Below, piece by piece: positions 1,320 through 7,128 of a stretch of 28,879 bases of DNA. The position numbers were made by a program, and so were the translations under genes. Origin of the DNA: Escherichia phage Phi06_2987 S. The notes under the pieces are model-generated. The model searched no databases. It worked only from the letters and a program-made list of their open reading frames with translations, and was not told where the DNA came from. Each line of letters begins with the position of its first letter. Within the stretch, counting starts at the first letter, position 1. The stretch is from the sequence record KM389287.1, one strand, 5' to 3'.

Positions 1320-2429
1320 GTGTATAAGTTCACGCTTATAACTGGGAAAAAGAAAACTCTCGGTTCGGATCGAGTAATGGCTATCGCCATCGCCCGAGAA
1401 TATAACCTGAGGATGCGCCCTGAAAATACACCATCGATAGATTCATTAATTCGGGAATCGGGAGGGCTGAATGGTGAAGCCCACCCGTTTTCTGAACATG
1501 TTGATCGCATTATGGAGAGAGCGATCAAAGATGAGCAGCCGTCTAAAAGCACACTTGACGATTGGAATAATGATGCCATCAGGGTTAAAGAATTTTTTAA
1601 TAACATACCCGCATGCGATATTGAGCTTGAGCACGTAAATGCCTACATACGAAATTACCATTCTGAATCGTCGGCCAATGTTCAGAACCGAAAAGTTAGC
1701 TTCCTGAAAAAGCTATTCTCTTATGCTGTTGATGAATCGCTAATGATGGATAACCCTGCAACACGGAAAAAAATGCGGCGTGTCGATAAAAAGGTCCGCC
1801 GGCGACTCACTTTGGAACAGTTCTTGGCCATACATGCAGCTGCTGAACCTTGGCTGAAGACTGCAATGGACCTTGCCATACAAACTACGCAAGCGCGCCT
1901 GGAAGTTTCCCGGATCCGGTACTCGATCAAGGAACCTCAAGAAGGGGTTTGCGGCTGTGTATGGTTCGATCAGGAGGAGGCTGGCATATTCGGAACGCTT
2001 TACATTCACCGGCAAAAAGTGCAGCACAAAGAGGCTTCACACGTCGCTATTCCGATCGGCAGGGCCCTGAAAGAGATCATCGACAACAGCAGAGACAATG
2101 TGGCCAGTCCTTATGTTGTTCACCGGCTTCTGGAAAAGAGAAGCAATCCGATAAGTAAGGAAGTTAACCACCCAACACAGGTGGCCCCTGATTATTTGAG
2201 CAGGGCATTTTCAGAGCTGCGGGACCGGATAGGTGTAGCGGCAGAATTACCTATCAAAGAAAGGCCAACTTTCCACGAAATTAGAGCGCTGGCGGCTCAT
2301 ATTTTCGAAAGACAAGGTATCGATCCGCAGGCAAGGATGGCCCATAGTGATGCAAAATCGACAAAAATTTATACCCAGAATCATGTTGAATGGGTTGAAG
2401 TACCACATGCAGAAATAAAAATGGCATAG
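1320..2429 (+). CDS. int: tyrosine integrase (lambda Int family); N-terminal arm-binding segment lies in another frame from ATG 1249
   Basis: 369-aa ORF from GTG 1320 with a tyrosine-recombinase C-terminal region. The ATG at 1249 encodes MAARPRKKEYRHLPDYLF, which matches the integrase N-terminal arm-binding consensus but hits a stop at 1339. The two frames join only if the T7 run at 1298-1304 were T8. Confidence 0.9.
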   Translation: MYKFTLITGKKKTLGSDRVMAIAIAREYNLRMRPENTPSIDSLIRESGGLNGEAHPFSEHVDRIMERAIKDEQPSKSTLDDWNNDAIRVKEFFNNIPACDIELEHVNAYIRNYHSESSANVQNRKVSFLKKLFSYAVDESLMMDNPATRKKMRRVDKKVRRRLTLEQFLAIHAAAEPWLKTAMDLAIQTTQARLEVSRIRYSIKEPQEGVCGCVWFDQEEAGIFGTLYIHRQKVQHKEASHVAIPIGRALKEIIDNSRDNVASPYVVHRLLEKRSNPISKEVNHPTQVAPDYLSRAFSELRDRIGVAAELPIKERPTFHEIRALAAHIFERQGIDPQARMAHSDAKSTKIYTQNHVEWVEVPHAEIKMA

Positions 2430-2430
2430 A

Positions 2431-2455
2431 AAAAGGCACCTGATGGTGCCTTGAA
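2431..2455 (+). terminator. hairpin just after the int stop (possible terminator)
   Basis: Perfect inverted repeat AAGGCACC-TGAT-GGTGCCTT straight after the int stop codon. There is no long T-run, so termination efficiency is uncertain. A related GGTGCC-containing motif recurs at about 2478-2495. Confidence 0.35.
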
Positions 2456-2551
2456 TAAAGTCTTGAATAAGACACCCGAAGGTGCCTTAAGTGGTTCTCT
2501 TAGCAACGAACTAAGAACGCCCACGCCTCATACCCATAATCATGAGCATCA

Positions 2552-2653
2552 AGGACTTTTGCGGATTTCCCACGTACCTTGCGGTAACGGCAGAAAACCC
2601 AACGGAACCCTTTTGGTGCCGCTTTCGAAGCGATAGATTTCAAACTCATTCAT
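2552..2653 (-). CDS. candidate small protein (33 aa) downstream of ImmA
   Basis: Hand-found ORF MNEFEIYRFESGTKRVPLGFLPLPQGTWEIRKSP preceded by a near-ideal Shine-Dalgarno (TAAGGAGGTG, 6 nt spacer, ATG). Too short for the track. Existence is unproven. Confidence 0.25.
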
Positions 2654-2807
2654 GTAACACCTCCTTACCAAGAGAGATTTTTCCCTTGAACATCTTCCCT
2701 GAAGGTGTTAGTTTCAGGCTGTCTATTGAAGCTGTTCACGGTGGTGACGCCTCTCGGATTCATCACCTTAAGACCCCTTGCATTGGTTGGCGCCAAGCAG
2801 GGGGTTT

Positions 2808-3329
2808 TTACATTTTGTCTAACTGATATCGTGCGGCCACTAATGATACTCCGCATGCCTCAGCTACATTTTCAGCACTCATACCTTTCAGAACATTGGC
2901 ATGAATAGCCGGTACTAATAGCTCACCACTGAAACATTTGGCTTGCCACTCACTACTCTCAAAAGGGCGGATTTTTACCCCTGGAGCAGAACGCGCGAAA
3001 GCAATGTTCCTGTGCATGAGAAGATGTCCCAGTTCATGTGCGGCAGTCATCCTGTCACGCCCTACCCCATTCAAAGCACCCTCGTAAATGTCTTCACGAA
3101 GAATCAATAAATGTTCCTGTGGGTAGGTGAGACCGTGCGTCTCCCCCATTTCCTTCATCCCACCGATATGGAGTTCAAAATCTGGGATCAACTGAGGCAA
3201 TGCGAACTCAATCACCTCCATAACAGGAAACATCAGACCTGTAATACCGAAGGTGCTCCGCAGAGATCTGACGATAGAACGTATTGATTCGCGGTTCTGC
3301 GGGGGTACACGATAATCTTGTCCGCTCAA
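2808..3329 (-). CDS. ImmA/IrrE-family zinc metallopeptidase
   Basis: 173-aa ORF with an HEXXH motif (AAHELGHLLMH). TTG start preceded by AGGAGG. It begins 8 nt after the XRE gene stop, so the pair is likely an operon. Confidence 0.8.
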   Translation of the reverse strand: MSGQDYRVPPQNRESIRSIVRSLRSTFGITGLMFPVMEVIEFALPQLIPDFELHIGGMKEMGETHGLTYPQEHLLILREDIYEGALNGVGRDRMTAAHELGHLLMHRNIAFARSAPGVKIRPFESSEWQAKCFSGELLVPAIHANVLKGMSAENVAEACGVSLVAARYQLDKM

Positions 3330-3337
3330 AATGCCTC

Positions 3338-3697
3338 CTACTGCTGTTTTCGATTCAAAATCTGTCGTAAATTCCGGAAGTCTTCTTCATTTAACTCATC
3401 AAAACTACGAGCGAACGCAATTGCGACTTCACGAGCATGGTCGTTCTTACCTGACAAGCTGATCTCTACTGATTGCTGAGAGTCACGAGCTGCACTGATA
3501 AGCTTTTCTTTTTGTTTTTCATCCGCATTCAGATAGCCAATGATGCTATCAAGCACGGGTTTAGTGACCGCCCTTTTACCAGTTTCGATTGCTGAAAGAT
3601 AAGACGAGGTCATACCCATAGCCTCAGCCATGCTTTTAAGCGTAAGCCCCAGGTCTATGCGCATTTTTCTTACTGTCTTACCAAACGGCGTTAACAT
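3338..3697 (-). CDS. XRE-family helix-turn-helix transcriptional regulator
   Basis: HTH signature LGLTLKSMAEAMGMTSSYLSAIETGKR. Start at 3697 (MLTPFGK...) chosen for a GGAG Shine-Dalgarno; the track ORF extends to 3745 without a ribosome-binding site. Confidence 0.8.
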   Translation of the reverse strand: MLTPFGKTVRKMRIDLGLTLKSMAEAMGMTSSYLSAIETGKRAVTKPVLDSIIGYLNADEKQKEKLISAARDSQQSVEISLSGKNDHAREVAIAFARSFDELNEEDFRNLRQILNRKQQ

Positions 3698-3769
3698 AGT
3701 TGTATCTCCAGTGTGTCCAAGACCCCCATTACTCTTGGGTCTCATTTTAAGTTAACACGCTCCCGACAG

Positions 3770-3819
3770 AAAATCAACAGAATTTTGTTGATTTCTTTCA
3801 TGTCGATTCGTTTACGAAT
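3770..3819. promoter_or_regulatory. palindromic operator candidates upstream of the XRE gene
   Basis: Perfect 7-2-7 palindrome GATTCGT-TT-ACGAATC at 3804-3819 and an imperfect inverted repeat AAATCAACAGAATTTTGTTGATTT at 3770-3793, both in the leader region of the XRE/ImmA operon. Confidence 0.3.
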
Positions 3820-3922
3820 CTTCAGTCTCGTGTTGATTGAAACGTAGGTTGTGTGAAGAAGTATGGGGAAAAACCAGCTGTAACCCATTGATGTGTATAG
3901 TGCGGATTTTGCAAAAAATGCA

Positions 3923-3938
3923 CTGTTTGCATATACAG
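3923..3938. promoter_or_regulatory. LexA (SOS) box candidate
   Basis: CTGTTTGCATATACAG fits CTGT-N8-ACAG with an AT-rich centre. It differs at one position from the box at 4731-4746. Confidence 0.5.
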
Positions 3939-3994
3939 TCAAATGTGTCGCAGCACCAGTATTTACAAGGGTTACAGCGGATTTATCGCAGTGA

Positions 3995-4040
3995 CATGGG
4001 GTGTCGGGGGTCGGAGGTTCAAATCCTCTCGTGCCGACCA
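3995..4040 (+). other. 3' portion (about 46 nt) of a tRNA-Pro gene; probable attP core
   Basis: CATGGGGTGTCGGGGGTCGGAGGTTCAAATCCTCTCGTGCCGACCA contains a T-arm (GGAGG-TTCAAAT-CCTCT), the acceptor 3' strand CGTGCCG, discriminator A and CCA. This matches my recollection of enterobacterial tRNA-Pro(UGG), including the Pro-specific G72 that implies a C1:G72 pair. No matching 5' acceptor strand or D-arm lies upstream, so it is a fragment. Confidence 0.7.
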
Positions 4041-4080: not shown

Positions 4081-4145
4081 ATGTTTGAAATTTGTACGGG
4101 GAATCATTGGGGAAAAATGGGGGAATAACTCCCGACATTTACACG

Positions 4146-4466
4146 CTACATTACAGGCGATTTATCGTCTTTAACTTGGTTAAGTGTATGTGTAAGAACG
4201 CCGTGTACCGTTACGTCATTCAAAGCTTCCCCTTCTATCGCTTCACCATCTTGAGTGATCAGCGCGTGGCCCATTAGCTTCACGAACTGGTTTCTCCCGT
4301 CCATGCTAACCAGCAACGTATCCCCTCCTTCTGGCTTAAGACTGACGTTTATAACGGCCCAGCCGCATGAAGTTTCAATAACCCGGCAGTTGTTATCTAC
4401 ACCGCAGATAACATCTATTGTCATGCGCTGCTCCTGGTAATCCATGGCTGGCGATGGAAACCCCAT
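4146..4466 (-). CDS. hypothetical protein (106 aa), second gene of a two-gene operon
   Basis: Track ORF whose start overlaps the stop of the upstream 79-aa ORF by 1 nt. No family recognised. Confidence 0.5.
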   Translation of the reverse strand: MGFPSPAMDYQEQRMTIDVICGVDNNCRVIETSCGWAVINVSLKPEGGDTLLVSMDGRNQFVKLMGHALITQDGEAIEGEALNDVTVHGVLTHTLNQVKDDKSPVM

Positions 4467-4705
4467 TAGAAAACCCTCCCCATGTTACGCAGGATCCAGT
4501 ATCGGTTCTCACTTCCGTTTGTCGTCTTATCGGCGAAGTCTGGCTGGTATCGTTCGATCCATGAATTTGCATCTGCCTGGCTGAAATGCCAGTGCCTCTC
4601 CTGCAGTTCAGCGATGAATCTGTCTGTATGCAGGCAGAGATAGCCCTTCGGGTTTTGCTGTATGGCCGCAATAAAAGCAGCACGAATATCCGGTTGACGA
4701 GGCAT
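4466..4705 (-). CDS. hypothetical protein (79 aa), first gene of a two-gene operon
   Basis: Track ORF with a GAGGG Shine-Dalgarno 7-8 nt upstream of the ATG. Its predicted promoter region overlaps the LexA box at 4729-4748. Confidence 0.5.
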   Translation of the reverse strand: MPRQPDIRAAFIAAIQQNPKGYLCLHTDRFIAELQERHWHFSQADANSWIERYQPDFADKTTNGSENRYWILRNMGRVF

Positions 4706-4726
4706 GAACGCACCCTCACTTGCTTA

Positions 4727-4756
4727 TTGACTGTATGCATATACAGTAGTATTTTT
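4727..4756 (+). promoter_or_regulatory. SOS-regulated promoter of the DinI-like gene (-35, LexA box, -10)
   Basis: TTGACT (-35, 4727-4732), 17-nt spacer, TATTTT (-10, 4750-4755). The LexA box gACTGTATGCATATACAGTa (4729-4748) overlaps the spacer. The gene 50 nt downstream is DinI-like, a classic LexA target. Confidence 0.6.
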
Positions 4757-4804
4757 ATGAAAACAGATCAAGCACAGGCAATTTTCACTTATGAGAGGAT
4801 CCGT

Positions 4805-5068
4805 ATGTTTGTTGAACTGGTTTATGACAAGCGAAATGTTGAGGGGCTCCAAGGGGCCAGAGAGATCATCCTGGCTGAACTAACGAAGCGGGTGCACCAG
4901 ATTTTTCCTGATGCCGAAGTGAAGGTAAAGCCGATGCAGGCGAACGGCTTAAATAGTGATGCCAGCAAAAGTGATCGGGAAAAGCTGAACCGTATGCTGG
5001 AGGAAATGTTTGATGAATCTGACATGTGGCTGACGTCTGAATTTCCAACTGTACGGCAGAATGGATAA
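4805..5068 (+). CDS. dinI: DinI-family (MsgA-like) DNA-damage-inducible protein
   Basis: 87-aa product MFVELVYDKRNVEGLQGAREIILAELTKRVHQIFPDAEVKV...DMWLTSE matches the DinI/MsgA pattern as I recall it. GAGAGGA ribosome-binding site upstream; the track ORF (from 4586) is over-extended at its 5' end. Confidence 0.85.
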   Translation: MFVELVYDKRNVEGLQGAREIILAELTKRVHQIFPDAEVKVKPMQANGLNSDASKSDREKLNRMLEEMFDESDMWLTSEFPTVRQNG

Positions 5069-5110: not shown

Positions 5111-5665
5111 TTAAGCCTGTCCCACCGGAAATTTTTTATAAAGCGTGCATACAGCGACATCATAAATTATTGCCACTTGTTTTCTATCCACGCCGTTTAA
5201 TATTAATCTCCCAGCTTGTGCCCATTGCTCGGGAGTTAATTTTGGACGTCTGCCACCTATTCGCCCTTTTTCCCGCGCCGCCGCTAATCCAGCCCGGGTG
5301 CGTTCGACGATTAACTCTCTTTCCATTTCCGCCAGCGCTGACATGATGTGAAATATAAAACGCCCCATTGGACTTGATGTATCAATGCTGTCCGTGAGGC
5401 TCTTAAAGTGAATGCCCCGCTGTCGGAGTTCGTCCACCAGCAGCACTAAATTTCGCATGCTTCGCCCGAGGCGATCTAGTTTCCACACCACCAGTGTATC
5501 GCCCGCATTCAGAGTCCGCAGAAGCTTTTTGAGCGCTGGCCGGTTCGCTACCGTCCCGCTCATTTTTTCTTCAAAAACCTGTTCACATCCTGCGCGTTCG
5601 AGAGCTTGGCGCTGGAGATCTGTATTTTGGTCATTTGTTGACACTCTGACATAGCCAATTTGCAT
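5111..5665 (-). CDS. serine recombinase, DNA invertase (Gin/Pin/Hin/Cin/Min family)
   Basis: MQIGYVRVSTNDQNTDLQRQAL... is the canonical invertase N-terminus with the catalytic serine context; the C-terminal HTH region resembles Gin as I recall it. ATG at 5665 preferred over the upstream GTG at 5674. Confidence 0.9.
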   Translation of the reverse strand: MQIGYVRVSTNDQNTDLQRQALERAGCEQVFEEKMSGTVANRPALKKLLRTLNAGDTLVVWKLDRLGRSMRNLVLLVDELRQRGIHFKSLTDSIDTSSPMGRFIFHIMSALAEMERELIVERTRAGLAAAREKGRIGGRRPKLTPEQWAQAGRLILNGVDRKQVAIIYDVAVCTLYKKFPVGQA

Positions 5666-5699
5666 ATTTTTCACCCAATAAATTCTGCAAAAAAATCAG

Positions 5700-6533
5700 G
5701 TGAAGTTATCGGCCAGGCCGGCCCGTGGCAATCTATTAAACGTCGGTTTGGGAAGCAGCGCTACAAGGAACGCGTACAGCTCATCTGGCGATATACTTTC
5801 TGTAGGGGATTTGGGCTTGGGTGTTGTTGCCCCTGCCGAACAAAACCGTTACGAAAACGCGAGATTAAATGGCTTTTATAACATTGCCTCTGGTTCCGGC
5901 AACGGCCTGCCAACTAATGATGCGGGCTACGGTGTCTGGATGAACCGAAGCTCAAATTACGGCACCTTTGAGTGCTGGCTAAGTGGGCCTGTCGGGAGAA
6001 AAATGTTTAGCCAGGTTATAGGCGGAACAGCAGGTAAATGGTATGAATTTTACCATACAGCTAATACGACAAAAGCCAGTGACGGCACTATCAAAGCTGC
6101 CTCCCCCGTGGCACGAATTGTAACGAGCAAGGATGAGTGCCAGCGTGCTGATATAGCGGAGGATGGTTTTACCTGGTGCGGCTGCGGTGCGGCGAATGCC
6201 GAGGCTGAGGGCATTACTATTTCACGGCTTGATGTCGGCGTTTATGTTCTCACAGGTTCGGCAGGCCTGGCGTCTGAGGGATGGCAGTTACTTCCCCCAA
6301 TGGACCCTGGCGGCATGGGGGAACTGGGTGTAGTTGAGGCAGAGCAAACCGATAGCGGTGGGCTGACTATCCGTCTGTATAAACGCAAATACATCCTGAG
6401 CGATGAAGGTGAAATCATCAAAACCAAAGGTGAACCGATGGACGTACCGGCGAACAGCTGGATCGATGTTCGCTTGGATATGCCCGCAGATTCACTGTTT
6501 AACCAGCGGATGAGCCAGAAGCCGGAGATTTAG
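5700..6533 (+). CDS. alternative tail fiber C-terminal cassette C (likely start-less in this orientation)
   Basis: From site 1 the frame reads ...NVGLGSSATRNAY..., parallel to ...NLGLGSSATKDVG... at the crossover point in the expressed tail fiber. Its C-terminus (VPANSWIDVRLDMPADSLFNQ) and an internal block (TANTTKASDGTIKAASPV) are homologous to cassette A. The ATG at 5700 is probably fortuitous. Confidence 0.65.
   Translation: MKLSARPARGNLLNVGLGSSATRNAYSSSGDILSVGDLGLGVVAPAEQNRYENARLNGFYNIASGSGNGLPTNDAGYGVWMNRSSNYGTFECWLSGPVGRKMFSQVIGGTAGKWYEFYHTANTTKASDGTIKAASPVARIVTSKDECQRADIAEDGFTWCGCGAANAEAEGITISRLDVGVYVLTGSAGLASEGWQLLPPMDPGGMGELGVVEAEQTDSGGLTIRLYKRKYILSDEGEIIKTKGEPMDVPANSWIDVRLDMPADSLFNQRMSQKPEI
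5731..5756. other. invertase crossover site 1 (gix-like), inverted relative to sites 2 and 3
   Basis: ATCTATTAAACG-TC-GGTTTGGGAAGC. Its reverse complement shares cTTCC(c/t)AAACC-GA with sites 2 and 3. It lies 78 bp upstream of the invertase start, at the 5' end of cassette C. Confidence 0.65.
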
Positions 6534-7128
6534 CGTCGCCCTCTAATGCGCTGACGCGGATTGCCAGCTCTTTGATTGCCGCCAGCGCATCGAGCACCAG
6601 AGGATTGAGGTCTAGGGTCATTTTCCCCGACTCCTCAGCCGAGTGAACATATTGCGGATCTATCTTTTCCAGTTCCTGAGCAACAACACCTCGGCGTATC
6701 GTTTTCTCTTCATCAGCAAGGTAGTAGAAGGTCTTAAAATCCATTGCCACGATGTTGGCCAGAGACACTTCTAAATTAAGTTCTCCAGTAACCTTCTTGA
6801 AATTTATGTCCGATGTACCTGCAGACTGCAGCTGCGCCCACGGCACTGATGATTTTGGTGTTTGAGGGTCAGTGGTTGTTAGAAAACGGCTGAATACCGC
6901 ACTACCGTAAGTAATCCACAGCTGCGCAATTCGCTGCTCGGTGTAGGAACTCTGAAACCCACAGCCATTCGTAGGAGCCCACAGAGTATTGCCATCAGCA
7001 TCACTGATGAAGGATGAACTGGCATCTGTGGGCTTATTTTGGAGAACAGCACCAACCCCAAAAGCTCCCACCTGCATAACATTCCCTGCCGCAGTTCCGA
7101 CATCCTTTGTCGCACTACTTCCTAAACC
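6499..7128 (-). CDS. alternative tail fiber C-terminal cassette B with a peptidase S74-like intramolecular chaperone domain; no start codon of its own
   Basis: The frame is open from crossover site 2 (…KVGLGSSATKDVGTAAGNVMQVGAFGVGA…), with an in-frame TGA immediately upstream and no ATG before the shared motif. The C-terminal part (FKTFYYLADEEKTIRRGVVAQELEKIDPQYVH...LVLDALAAIKELAIRVSALEG) resembles the auto-cleaving chaperone domain of phage fibers and spikes. The track ORF is 6499..7077. Confidence 0.6.
   Translation of the reverse strand, partial: GLGSSATKDVGTAAGNVMQVGAFGVGAVLQNKPTDASSSFISDADGNTLWAPTNGCGFQSSYTEQRIAQLWITYGSAVFSRFLTTTDPQTPKSSVPWAQLQSAGTSDINFKKVTGELNLEVSLANIVAMDFKTFYYLADEEKTIRRGVVAQELEKIDPQYVHSAEESGKMTLDLNPLVLDALAAIKELAIRVSALEGDAKSPASGSSAG

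What the first reader, a model, noticed from the sequence alone, without database searches (positions are those of the whole stretch)
4146..4705. Cryptic two-gene operon divergent from dinI and sharing the SOS box
A 79-aa and a 106-aa ORF overlap by 1 nt (stop/start coupling). Their predicted promoter (TTGCCT -35, ATAAAA -10 on the minus strand) places the same LexA box just downstream of the -10. I do not recognise either protein. Size, tight coupling and probable SOS control are compatible with a toxin-antitoxin or stress-induced effector pair, but that is only inference.
Basis: inference. Interest (0 to 1): 0.55.

Follow-up and report, generated by a model that had tools for sequence, protein, structure and literature searches.

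The report
SOS-controlled phage UmuD'-like gene pair
The two small genes are real and are switched on by DNA damage, but they are not a toxin-antitoxin pair: one is a shortened, non-catalytic phage copy of UmuD' (the helper subunit of the error-prone DNA polymerase V), and the other is a small winged-helix protein of unknown role that almost always sits directly in front of it.

Summary
Two minus-strand ORFs (79 aa, 4466-4705; 106 aa, 4146-4466) overlap by 1 nt and face a DinI-family gene across a perfect LexA box (4731-4746).

**106-aa protein.** It is a UmuD'/HumD homologue (PHROG 3469, "UmuD-like"). It begins exactly at the post-cleavage Gly of UmuD. Profile and AlphaFold2/Foldseek searches hit UmuD' and the LexA C-domain. 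The catalytic-Ser loop is deleted.

**79-aa protein.** It belongs to a small uncharacterised family (PHROG 3893) with a confident winged-helix fold.

**Conservation across 105 related loci.**
- The 79-aa gene is followed by a UmuD'-like gene in 79 of 84 informative cases, 78 of them with the 1-nt overlap.
- A LexA box lies 26-41 nt upstream in 94 of 105, including loci without dinI.
- A conserved TTGATC-17-TACTGT promoter puts the box on the -10.
- No locus with the 79-aa gene has umuC. Sister mini-UmuD' genes without it are followed by umuC in 66 of 70 cases.

**Reading.** This is most likely a phage SOS module supplying a pre-activated UmuD' analogue for translesion synthesis. The winged-helix partner's role is inferred only. 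A toxin-antitoxin reading is not supported. I rate it a new variant of a known kind, of moderate interest.

The parts
4146..4466 (-). Gene for a 106-aa 'mini-UmuD'' protein: a non-catalytic S24/LexA-C-domain-fold protein that starts at the residue equivalent to UmuD Gly25
   Evidence: PHROG 3469 'UmuD-like protein', E 1e-47, full length. Residues 1-22 match NCBIfam HumD and PDB UmuD'. The family profile matches UmuD 8gmt at E 1.6e-6 over residues 2-97 against 25-137. AlphaFold2 pLDDT is 80, and the top Foldseek hits are LexA C-domain and UmuD' (1ay9, TM 0.65).
4466..4705 (-). Gene for a 79-aa winged-helix protein ('wH79'), translationally coupled to the downstream gene
4729..4748 (.). LexA operator (20-mer GACTGTATGCATATACAGTA; core 4731-4746) shared by the two divergent promoters
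   Evidence: A box at this position is present in 94 of 105 related loci, and in 22 of 31 that lack dinI.
4743..4771 (-). Conserved promoter of the operon: -35 TTGATC (4771->4766), 17-nt spacer, -10 TACTGT (4748->4743, the left arm of the LexA box)
   Evidence: TTGATC and the box are invariant in the alignment of 10 divergent loci and are present in remote loci L206 and L207. Its function as a promoter is inferred.
4713..4717 (-). Shine-Dalgarno GAGGG, 7 nt before the ATG of the 79-aa gene
   Evidence: Read from the sequence.
4475..4480 (-). Shine-Dalgarno GGGAGG of the 106-aa gene, embedded in the codons for the invariant C-terminal Met-Gly-Arg of the 79-aa protein
   Evidence: Read from the sequence. 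Conservation of NMGR is shown.
4121..4133 (-). Terminator-like hairpin plus T-run just after the 106-aa stop codon
   Evidence: consensus scan only.
4727..4755 (+). dinI promoter TTGACT-17-TATTTT with the LexA box in its spacer
4805..5068 (+). DinI-family gene (87 aa), divergent neighbour
   Evidence: Pfam DinI E 4.4e-22. It is divergent and within 200 nt in 74 of 105 related loci.

Best explanation
This is an SOS-induced accessory ('moron') operon of a lambdoid temperate phage, placed between the tail-fibre genes and attP.

In a lysogen, LexA sits on one operator that covers the -10 of the operon promoter and the spacer of the divergent dinI promoter. DNA damage cleaves LexA, and all three genes come on together.

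The 106-aa product is a shortened UmuD'-type protein made directly in the 'already cleaved' form. It has lost the catalytic Ser loop, which it no longer needs. It most likely dimerises and acts as a polymerase-V-type accessory subunit with the host's own, also LexA-derepressed, UmuC. That would give the phage or lysogen translesion synthesis without waiting for the slow RecA-mediated UmuD cleavage. The DinI paralogue would meanwhile modulate RecA filaments.

The 79-aa winged-helix protein is made in fixed proportion by stop/start coupling. It most likely works as a partner of the orphan UmuD'-like protein (stabiliser, adaptor or co-regulator).

Shown: the gene pair, its conservation, the LexA box, and the homology and fold assignments. 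Inferred: use of host UmuC, physical association of the two proteins, and the role of the 79-aa protein.
For: **UmuD' identity.**

**Precedent.** P1 humD is annotated as functionally complementing E. coli UmuD'. It has a LexA site shared with the divergent gene lxr.

**Same family next to umuC.** CobraSix-type mini-UmuD' genes are followed immediately by a complete UmuC homologue (IMS + IMS_C + DUF4113) in 66 of 70 loci, with a LexA box upstream in 73 of 79.

**Pair conservation.** The 79-aa gene is followed by a UmuD'-like gene in 79 of 84 informative loci, 78 of them with the 1-nt overlap. This holds down to homologues of about 30% identity.

**SOS control.** A perfect LexA box lies at a fixed distance in 94 of 105 loci, including loci without dinI, and the TTGATC-17-TACTGT promoter is conserved.

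**Charge complementarity.** The 79-aa family is basic (mean pI 8.6) and the 106-aa family is acidic (mean pI 4.4).

**Prophage end position.** In E. coli SZQ1 the module lies directly next to tRNA-Pro.
Against: - No experiment exists, and no literature on this pair was found.
- The 106-aa protein falls below the curated cut-offs of Pfam Peptidase_S24 and NCBIfam HumD. It also lacks a stretch of the UmuD' core, so it might not support polymerase V activity.
- Orphan HumD-type genes in P1 and HK639 have no 79-aa partner (neither phage appears among the hits). The partner is therefore not generally required for an orphan UmuD'.
- An identical 79-aa protein sits in front of two UmuD' types that share little beyond the first ~13 residues (about 30% identity or less overall). 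A remote homologue sits in front of a partner that lacks the GFPSPA arm. No conserved contact surface is therefore evident.
Confidence: 0.5

Rival explanations
1. Brake rather than supplier. The orphan mini-UmuD', with its partner, binds host UmuD/UmuD', UmuC or the RecA filament non-productively. It would damp polymerase V mutagenesis or SOS signalling, acting in concert with DinI, which is known to inhibit UmuD cleavage.
For: The core is truncated and the catalytic loop is lost. The module is always found without umuC when the 79-aa gene is present. A DinI paralogue is co-regulated. UmuD binds the RecA filament groove through residues (Y52, F94, D91, E93) that are only partly matched in the profile alignment.
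Against: The same truncated type is operonic with a complete umuC in other phages, which argues that it is a competent polymerase V subunit. P1 HumD is annotated as complementing UmuD'.
Confidence: 0.2
2. Split LexA-like regulator. The winged-helix protein supplies DNA binding and the S24-like protein supplies dimerisation. Together they would form a non-cleavable regulator or co-regulator made during SOS. This would be analogous to UmuDAb assisted by the small DdrR protein, or to phage GIL01 gp7 acting on LexA.
Confidence: 0.15
3. LexA-controlled antirepressor that triggers prophage induction by binding the S24 domain of the phage repressor.
For: An S24-like domain could heterodimerise with a CI-type repressor. 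LexA-controlled antirepressors next to dinI genes are known in Gifsy prophages (from my own knowledge, not checked here).
Against: The near-identical phage Eeyore has a classical HTH + Peptidase_S24 CI repressor, which can self-cleave. The module also occurs in many unrelated phage backbones.
Confidence: 0.05
4. Type II toxin-antitoxin pair: the 79-aa DNA-binding protein is the antitoxin and the 106-aa protein is the toxin.
For: Small size, 1-nt overlap, an upstream winged-helix protein and a conserved pairing.
Against: The downstream protein is a UmuD' homologue and not any known toxin fold. There are no hits in Pfam, NCBIfam or PADLOC to toxin-antitoxin or defence families. The partner is swapped between UmuD' types behind an identical upstream protein. 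The same downstream family is operonic with umuC elsewhere. The only conserved operator is the LexA box.
Confidence: 0.03

Closest known systems
Phage P1 HumD (and the HumD-type genes of N15, phiKO2, HK140 and HK639)
   Same: A phage-encoded UmuD homologue made directly in the cleaved (UmuD') form, starting MGFPSPAxDY. It has a LexA box shared with a divergent gene and no umuC in cis.
   Different: HumD is 129 aa and passes Pfam Peptidase_S24. The window's protein is 106 aa, has lost the Ser loop and falls below the curated cut-offs. P1 has no 79-aa upstream gene, and its divergent neighbour Lxr is unrelated to either DinI or the 79-aa protein.
E. coli UmuD' / polymerase V (UmuD'2C)
   Same: The fold, the N-terminal arm, LexA control and 1-nt stop/start coupling to a partner gene. 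Sister phage genes are followed by umuC.
   Different: Here the coupled partner lies upstream and is a 79-aa winged-helix protein, not UmuC. No self-cleavage step is needed, and the catalytic Ser is absent.
impCAB-type plasmid operons (ImpC is DinI-like; from my own knowledge, with the operon cited in PMC11541004)
   Same: Co-regulated association of a DinI-family gene with a UmuD-family gene on a mobile element.
   Different: impCAB is a single operon that includes the polymerase gene impB. Here dinI is divergent, there is no polymerase gene, and there is an extra winged-helix gene.
Small partners of S24-family proteins: Acinetobacter DdrR with UmuDAb, and phage GIL01 gp7 with LexA
   Same: A small protein encoded beside, or acting on, a UmuD/LexA-family protein within the DNA-damage response.
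   Different: No sequence relationship was tested or expected. UmuDAb has its own DNA-binding domain and is cleavable. An interaction between the window's two proteins is not shown.
Stand-alone small winged-helix proteins such as PefI, a PapI-type co-regulator (the co-regulator description is from my own knowledge)
   Different: Only 11% identity, and many unrelated winged-helix domains score equally well. There is no family relationship.

Membership tests
UmuD'/HumD (S24 LexA-like, polymerase V accessory subunit) | LexA C-domain / UmuD' beta fold | tested here: met
   AlphaFold2 pLDDT 80. The top 9 Foldseek PDB hits are LexA C-domain, UmuD' or UmuD, and the top 34 are all LexA-family (S24) domains including lambda repressor (TM 0.65 to 1ay9). 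The family profile matches UmuD at E 1.6e-6 over nearly the full length.
UmuD'/HumD (S24 LexA-like, polymerase V accessory subunit) | N-terminal arm GFPSPAxDYxEQR beginning at the post-cleavage Gly | tested here: met
   Residues 2-22 align to UmuD 25-45, to UmuD' 1-21 and to HumD model positions 1-22.
UmuD'/HumD (S24 LexA-like, polymerase V accessory subunit) | Ser-Lys catalytic dyad | tested here: not met
   The loop carrying GDSM (Ser60) falls in an alignment gap, and the family consensus there is G-W/Y-A-V-I. In the HMM alignment the conserved Lys aligns with K98 rather than K97. The dyad is not needed once the protein is already in the cleaved form.
UmuD'/HumD (S24 LexA-like, polymerase V accessory subunit) | Passes the curated family thresholds (Pfam PF00717, NCBIfam HumD NF051876) | tested here: not met
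   No Peptidase_S24 hit at E <= 1. HumD scores 33.6 bits against a cut-off of 120, over the N-terminal 22 residues only.
UmuD'/HumD (S24 LexA-like, polymerase V accessory subunit) | Adjacent umuC-type polymerase gene | tested here: not met
   No UmuC-like gene lies within 2.5 kb in any of 119 loci that hold the 79-aa gene. This feature is met in sister loci without the 79-aa gene, 66 of 70. P1 HumD is likewise an orphan.
UmuD'/HumD (S24 LexA-like, polymerase V accessory subunit) | Supports umuC-dependent SOS mutagenesis | not testable with these tools
   Needs genetic complementation.
PHROG 3469 (UmuD-like protein) and PHROG 3893 (unknown function) | Full-length profile match | tested here: met
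   E 1e-47 over 1-106 of 106, and E 8.4e-42 over 1-78 of 79.
LexA (SOS) regulon | CTGT-N8-ACAG operator overlapping the promoter, conserved in orthologous loci | tested here: met
   LexA binding itself was not tested.
Type II toxin-antitoxin | One product belongs to a known toxin fold or family | tested here: not met
   No toxin, antitoxin or defence hit in Pfam, PHROGs, NCBIfam or PADLOC. The folds are UmuD'-like and winged-helix.
Type II toxin-antitoxin | Toxicity of one product, neutralised by the other | not testable with these tools
   Needs expression experiments.
Winged-helix DNA-binding proteins | H1-S1-H2-H3-S2-wing-S3 topology | tested here: met
Winged-helix DNA-binding proteins | Sequence-specific nucleic-acid binding | not testable with these tools
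   The family is only mildly basic, mean pI 8.6. No conserved operator other than the LexA box is seen.

The most novel reading that the evidence does not exclude
The 79-aa winged-helix protein is a previously unrecognised, dedicated partner of orphan phage UmuD'-type proteins that takes the place of UmuC. The two-protein complex would then be either a non-cleavable, LexA-like DNA-binding regulator made during SOS, or a new adaptor that redirects host translesion or replication machinery. Either way it would be a new function for the UmuD' scaffold on mobile elements.
Probability: 0.15. Interest if true: 0.65.

Novelty: new variant of a known kind. Interest (0 to 1): 0.38.

Why it matters
Phage- and plasmid-borne UmuD/UmuC genes influence damage tolerance and mutation supply in Enterobacteriaceae, including clinical Enterobacter, Klebsiella and E. 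coli lysogens.

This analysis defines three things:
- a minimal, catalytically dead UmuD' form;
- a conserved SOS promoter layout;
- an uncharacterised winged-helix partner whose presence is mutually exclusive with umuC.

The third point gives a concrete, testable question: what does an orphan UmuD' do, and why does it carry this partner?

The work also corrects recurrent annotation errors. In several public phage records the 79-aa gene is missing or is replaced by opposite-strand ORFs, and in one record (Eeyore) the dinI start is misplaced and the UmuD-like gene is truncated. If the pair merely supplies UmuD' activity, it is an ordinary moron of a known type.

Tried and rejected
**Toxin-antitoxin or defence system.** There are no hits for either protein in Pfam, NCBIfam, PHROGs function classes or PADLOC, and the context contradicts it.

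**Relationships of the 79-aa family that were tested and not found.**
- P1 Lxr.
- The ORFs upstream of UmuD'-like genes in phages SaltyDalty and BUCT554.
- LexA.
- UmuC.
- The 16-residue PARP1 WGR-like match (NRYWILRNMGRV, E 0.22) is treated as chance, because the predicted fold is winged-helix.
- Weak Pfam hits DUF7669 and WVELL are below their cut-offs.

**Natural fusions of the two proteins.** The longer database proteins P0252, P0343 and P0363 look like frameshift read-throughs, not real fusions.

**Structure searches for the 79-aa protein.** BFVD found only its own family. The afdb50 library was unavailable.

**Antirepressor idea.** Weakened by the classical cleavable CI repressor in the sister phage Eeyore.

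- Inter-protein covariation was judged underpowered, with about 60 unique and phylogenetically linked pairs, and was not run.
- The McLenigan 1999 HumD paper is not held in the library.

Full report
**Observation**

The minus strand carries a 79-aa ORF (4466-4705) and a 106-aa ORF (4146-4466). They share base 4466 (TAATG). A DinI-family gene (4805-5068, +; Pfam DinI E 4.4e-22) lies divergently.

Between them is a perfect LexA core, CTGTATGCATATACAG (4731-4746). Only two such cores occur in the window, against 0.26 expected by chance.

Both ORFs are real genes.
- The 79-aa family (158 database proteins) keeps a constant length of about 79 aa, and the 106-aa family (189 proteins) about 105-106 aa.
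- Across related loci, substitutions fall mainly on third codon positions: 667/541/1939 for the 79-aa gene and 791/528/2012 for the 106-aa gene.

**Setting**

The window is phage DNA in attP configuration. In order it holds:
- exonuclease and integrase genes (integrase 1320-2429);
- a 1.44-kb insertion;
- the 3' 46 nt of tRNA-Pro (3995-4040);
- the operon and dinI;
- a DNA invertase;
- tail-fibre, tail and head genes.

The module is 95-97% identical to E. coli phages Eeyore and Flotzy, and is also found in mEp390 and HK140. In E. coli SZQ1 it is 99.9% identical and sits at the prophage end, directly beside tRNA-Pro. PGAP calls both genes 'hypothetical protein' there. It occurs in 32 of 5426 complete E. 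coli genomes.

**The 106-aa protein**

- It matches PHROG 3469 'UmuD-like protein' over its full length (E 1e-47).
- Residues 2-22 (GFPSPAMDYQEQRMTIDV...) align with UmuD from Gly25, which is exactly the first residue of UmuD'. They also align with positions 1-22 of the HumD model.
- A single sequence does not reach Pfam Peptidase_S24. A profile of 50 family members does match UmuD/UmuD' over residues 2-97 (E 1.6e-6).
- The AlphaFold2 model (pLDDT 80) retrieves LexA C-domains and UmuD' as its best PDB matches (TM 0.65).
- The alignment shows a deletion across the GDSM loop that carries the nucleophile Ser60. The conserved Lys aligns with K98 rather than K97.

It is therefore a shortened, catalytically dead UmuD' analogue. 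It is strongly acidic (mean pI 4.4).

**The 79-aa protein**

- It matches PHROG 3893, of unknown function.
- There is no curated family hit and no PDB sequence match.
- An exhaustive profile search of 1.84 billion representatives finds only 164 clusters, almost all stand-alone proteins of about 79 aa.
- AlphaFold2 gives a confident model (pLDDT 90.7) with canonical winged-helix topology.
- The family is mildly basic (mean pI 8.6).
- It shows no relationship to P1 Lxr, LexA or UmuC.

**Pair conservation and regulation**

I examined 114 loci from IMG/VR and GTDB genomes. Of these, 105 hold an intact 79-aa gene.

- Among the 84 with enough downstream sequence, 79 are followed by a UmuD'-like gene: 67 of the mini type and 12 of the 129-aa HumD type. 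In 78 of them the 1-nt overlap is kept.
- The exceptions are deletions or prophage ends.
- Two remote homologues from the exhaustive search also precede mini-UmuD' genes.
- A perfect LexA core lies 26-41 nt upstream of the start codon in 94 of 105 loci. This includes 22 of the 31 loci with no divergent dinI, so the box belongs to this operon and not only to dinI.

Aligning ten divergent promoter regions shows only two conserved elements, an invariant TTGATC and the LexA box. They are arranged as TTGATC-17-TACTGT (seen again).

In the window this corresponds to 4771->4766 and 4748->4743, so LexA would cover the -10. The dinI promoter TTGACT-17-TATTTT holds the same box in its spacer.

**Architecture logic**

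- An identical 79-aa protein is found in front of either a HumD-129 or a mini-106 partner. Sequence identity breaks down within the first ~40 nt of the partner gene.
- One remote homologue precedes a partner without the GFPSPA arm.
- No locus containing the 79-aa gene has a umuC-like gene.
- The CobraSix-type mini-UmuD' genes lack the 79-aa gene. They are followed directly by a complete UmuC homologue in 66 of 70 loci, again behind a LexA box. The five loci in that set that do have the 79-aa gene lack umuC.

There are thus two mutually exclusive layouts:
- LexA box, then the winged-helix gene, then the UmuD'-like gene;
- LexA box, then the UmuD'-like gene, then umuC.

**Interpretation**

The best-supported reading is an SOS-induced phage module that supplies a pre-activated UmuD' analogue for polymerase-V-type translesion synthesis using host UmuC.

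- P1 humD is the precedent. It is annotated as complementing UmuD', and it shares a LexA site with a divergent gene.
- The sister operons with umuC show that the truncated type is a bona fide polymerase V partner.

The winged-helix protein's role as partner, stabiliser, adaptor or co-regulator is inference. It rests on coupling, conservation, charge complementarity and the exclusivity with umuC. It is weakened by the free exchange of partner types and by orphan HumD genes that lack it.

Rivals are:
- a dominant-negative brake on polymerase V or RecA;
- a split LexA-like regulator, by analogy with DdrR/UmuDAb and gp7/LexA;
- an antirepressor, made unlikely by the sister phage's classical cleavable CI;
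- a toxin-antitoxin pair, for which there is no supporting homology and the context argues against it.

**Verdict**

This is a new variant of a known kind, of moderate interest. No literature on the pair was found.

Noticed in passing
window 3923-3938 (with 3908-3950): A second perfect LexA core, CTGTTTGCATATACAG. On the minus strand it sits in TTGACT-17-ATTTTT, the same layout as the dinI promoter, so it would drive leftward transcription. The box is also present in phage Eeyore just after int, where its target is unclear (possibly antisense to int).
   Followed up: partly
window 2417-3857 (ORFs 2542-2826 +, 2808-3329 -, 3338-3745 -): A 1.44-kb insertion relative to phages Eeyore and Flotzy, between int and attP. 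It carries an XRE HTH gene and an M78/ImmA-type peptidase gene that hit PADLOC capH (4e-10) and capP (1e-10). These are DNA-damage-responsive regulator types. Here they lie downstream of the second LexA box and have no obvious effector gene.
   Followed up: partly
window 3995-4040: The 3' 46 nt of tRNA-Pro, which is the attP core. ARAGORN finds no complete tRNA, so the window is in the phage (attP) configuration. In E. coli SZQ1 the same module is integrated beside an intact tRNA-Pro downstream of yejM.
   Followed up: yes
window 5111-7077: A Gin/Pin-type DNA invertase (Resolvase + HTH_7, E 6e-50) next to oppositely oriented tail-fibre and tail-fibre-assembly ORFs. This is probably an invertible host-range switch.
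   Followed up: no
L001 (Eeyore), L002 (mEp390), L005 (Midgardsormr38): Annotation errors in public records. In Eeyore and mEp390 the 79-aa gene is not annotated and short opposite-strand ORFs are called instead. Eeyore's DinI is called as 160 aa running across the LexA box, and its UmuD-like gene starts at internal Met15. The Erwinia phage names the 79-aa homologue 'DNA polymerase V'.
   Followed up: yes
window 4464-4483: The ribosome-binding site of the 106-aa gene (GGGAGG) lies inside the codons for the invariant C-terminal Met-Gly-Arg of the 79-aa protein (ATG GGG AGG GTT TTC TAATG). Part of that tail's conservation may therefore be an RNA-level constraint rather than a protein-level one.
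   Followed up: partly
L010 vs L018; L003 (HK225): Cassette exchange of UmuD' types occurs exactly at the gene junction: 100% identity through dinI, the promoter and the 79-aa gene, decaying within about 40 nt of the partner gene. In HK225 the UmuD'-like gene is deleted and the 79-aa ORF is extended to 99 aa.
   Followed up: yes
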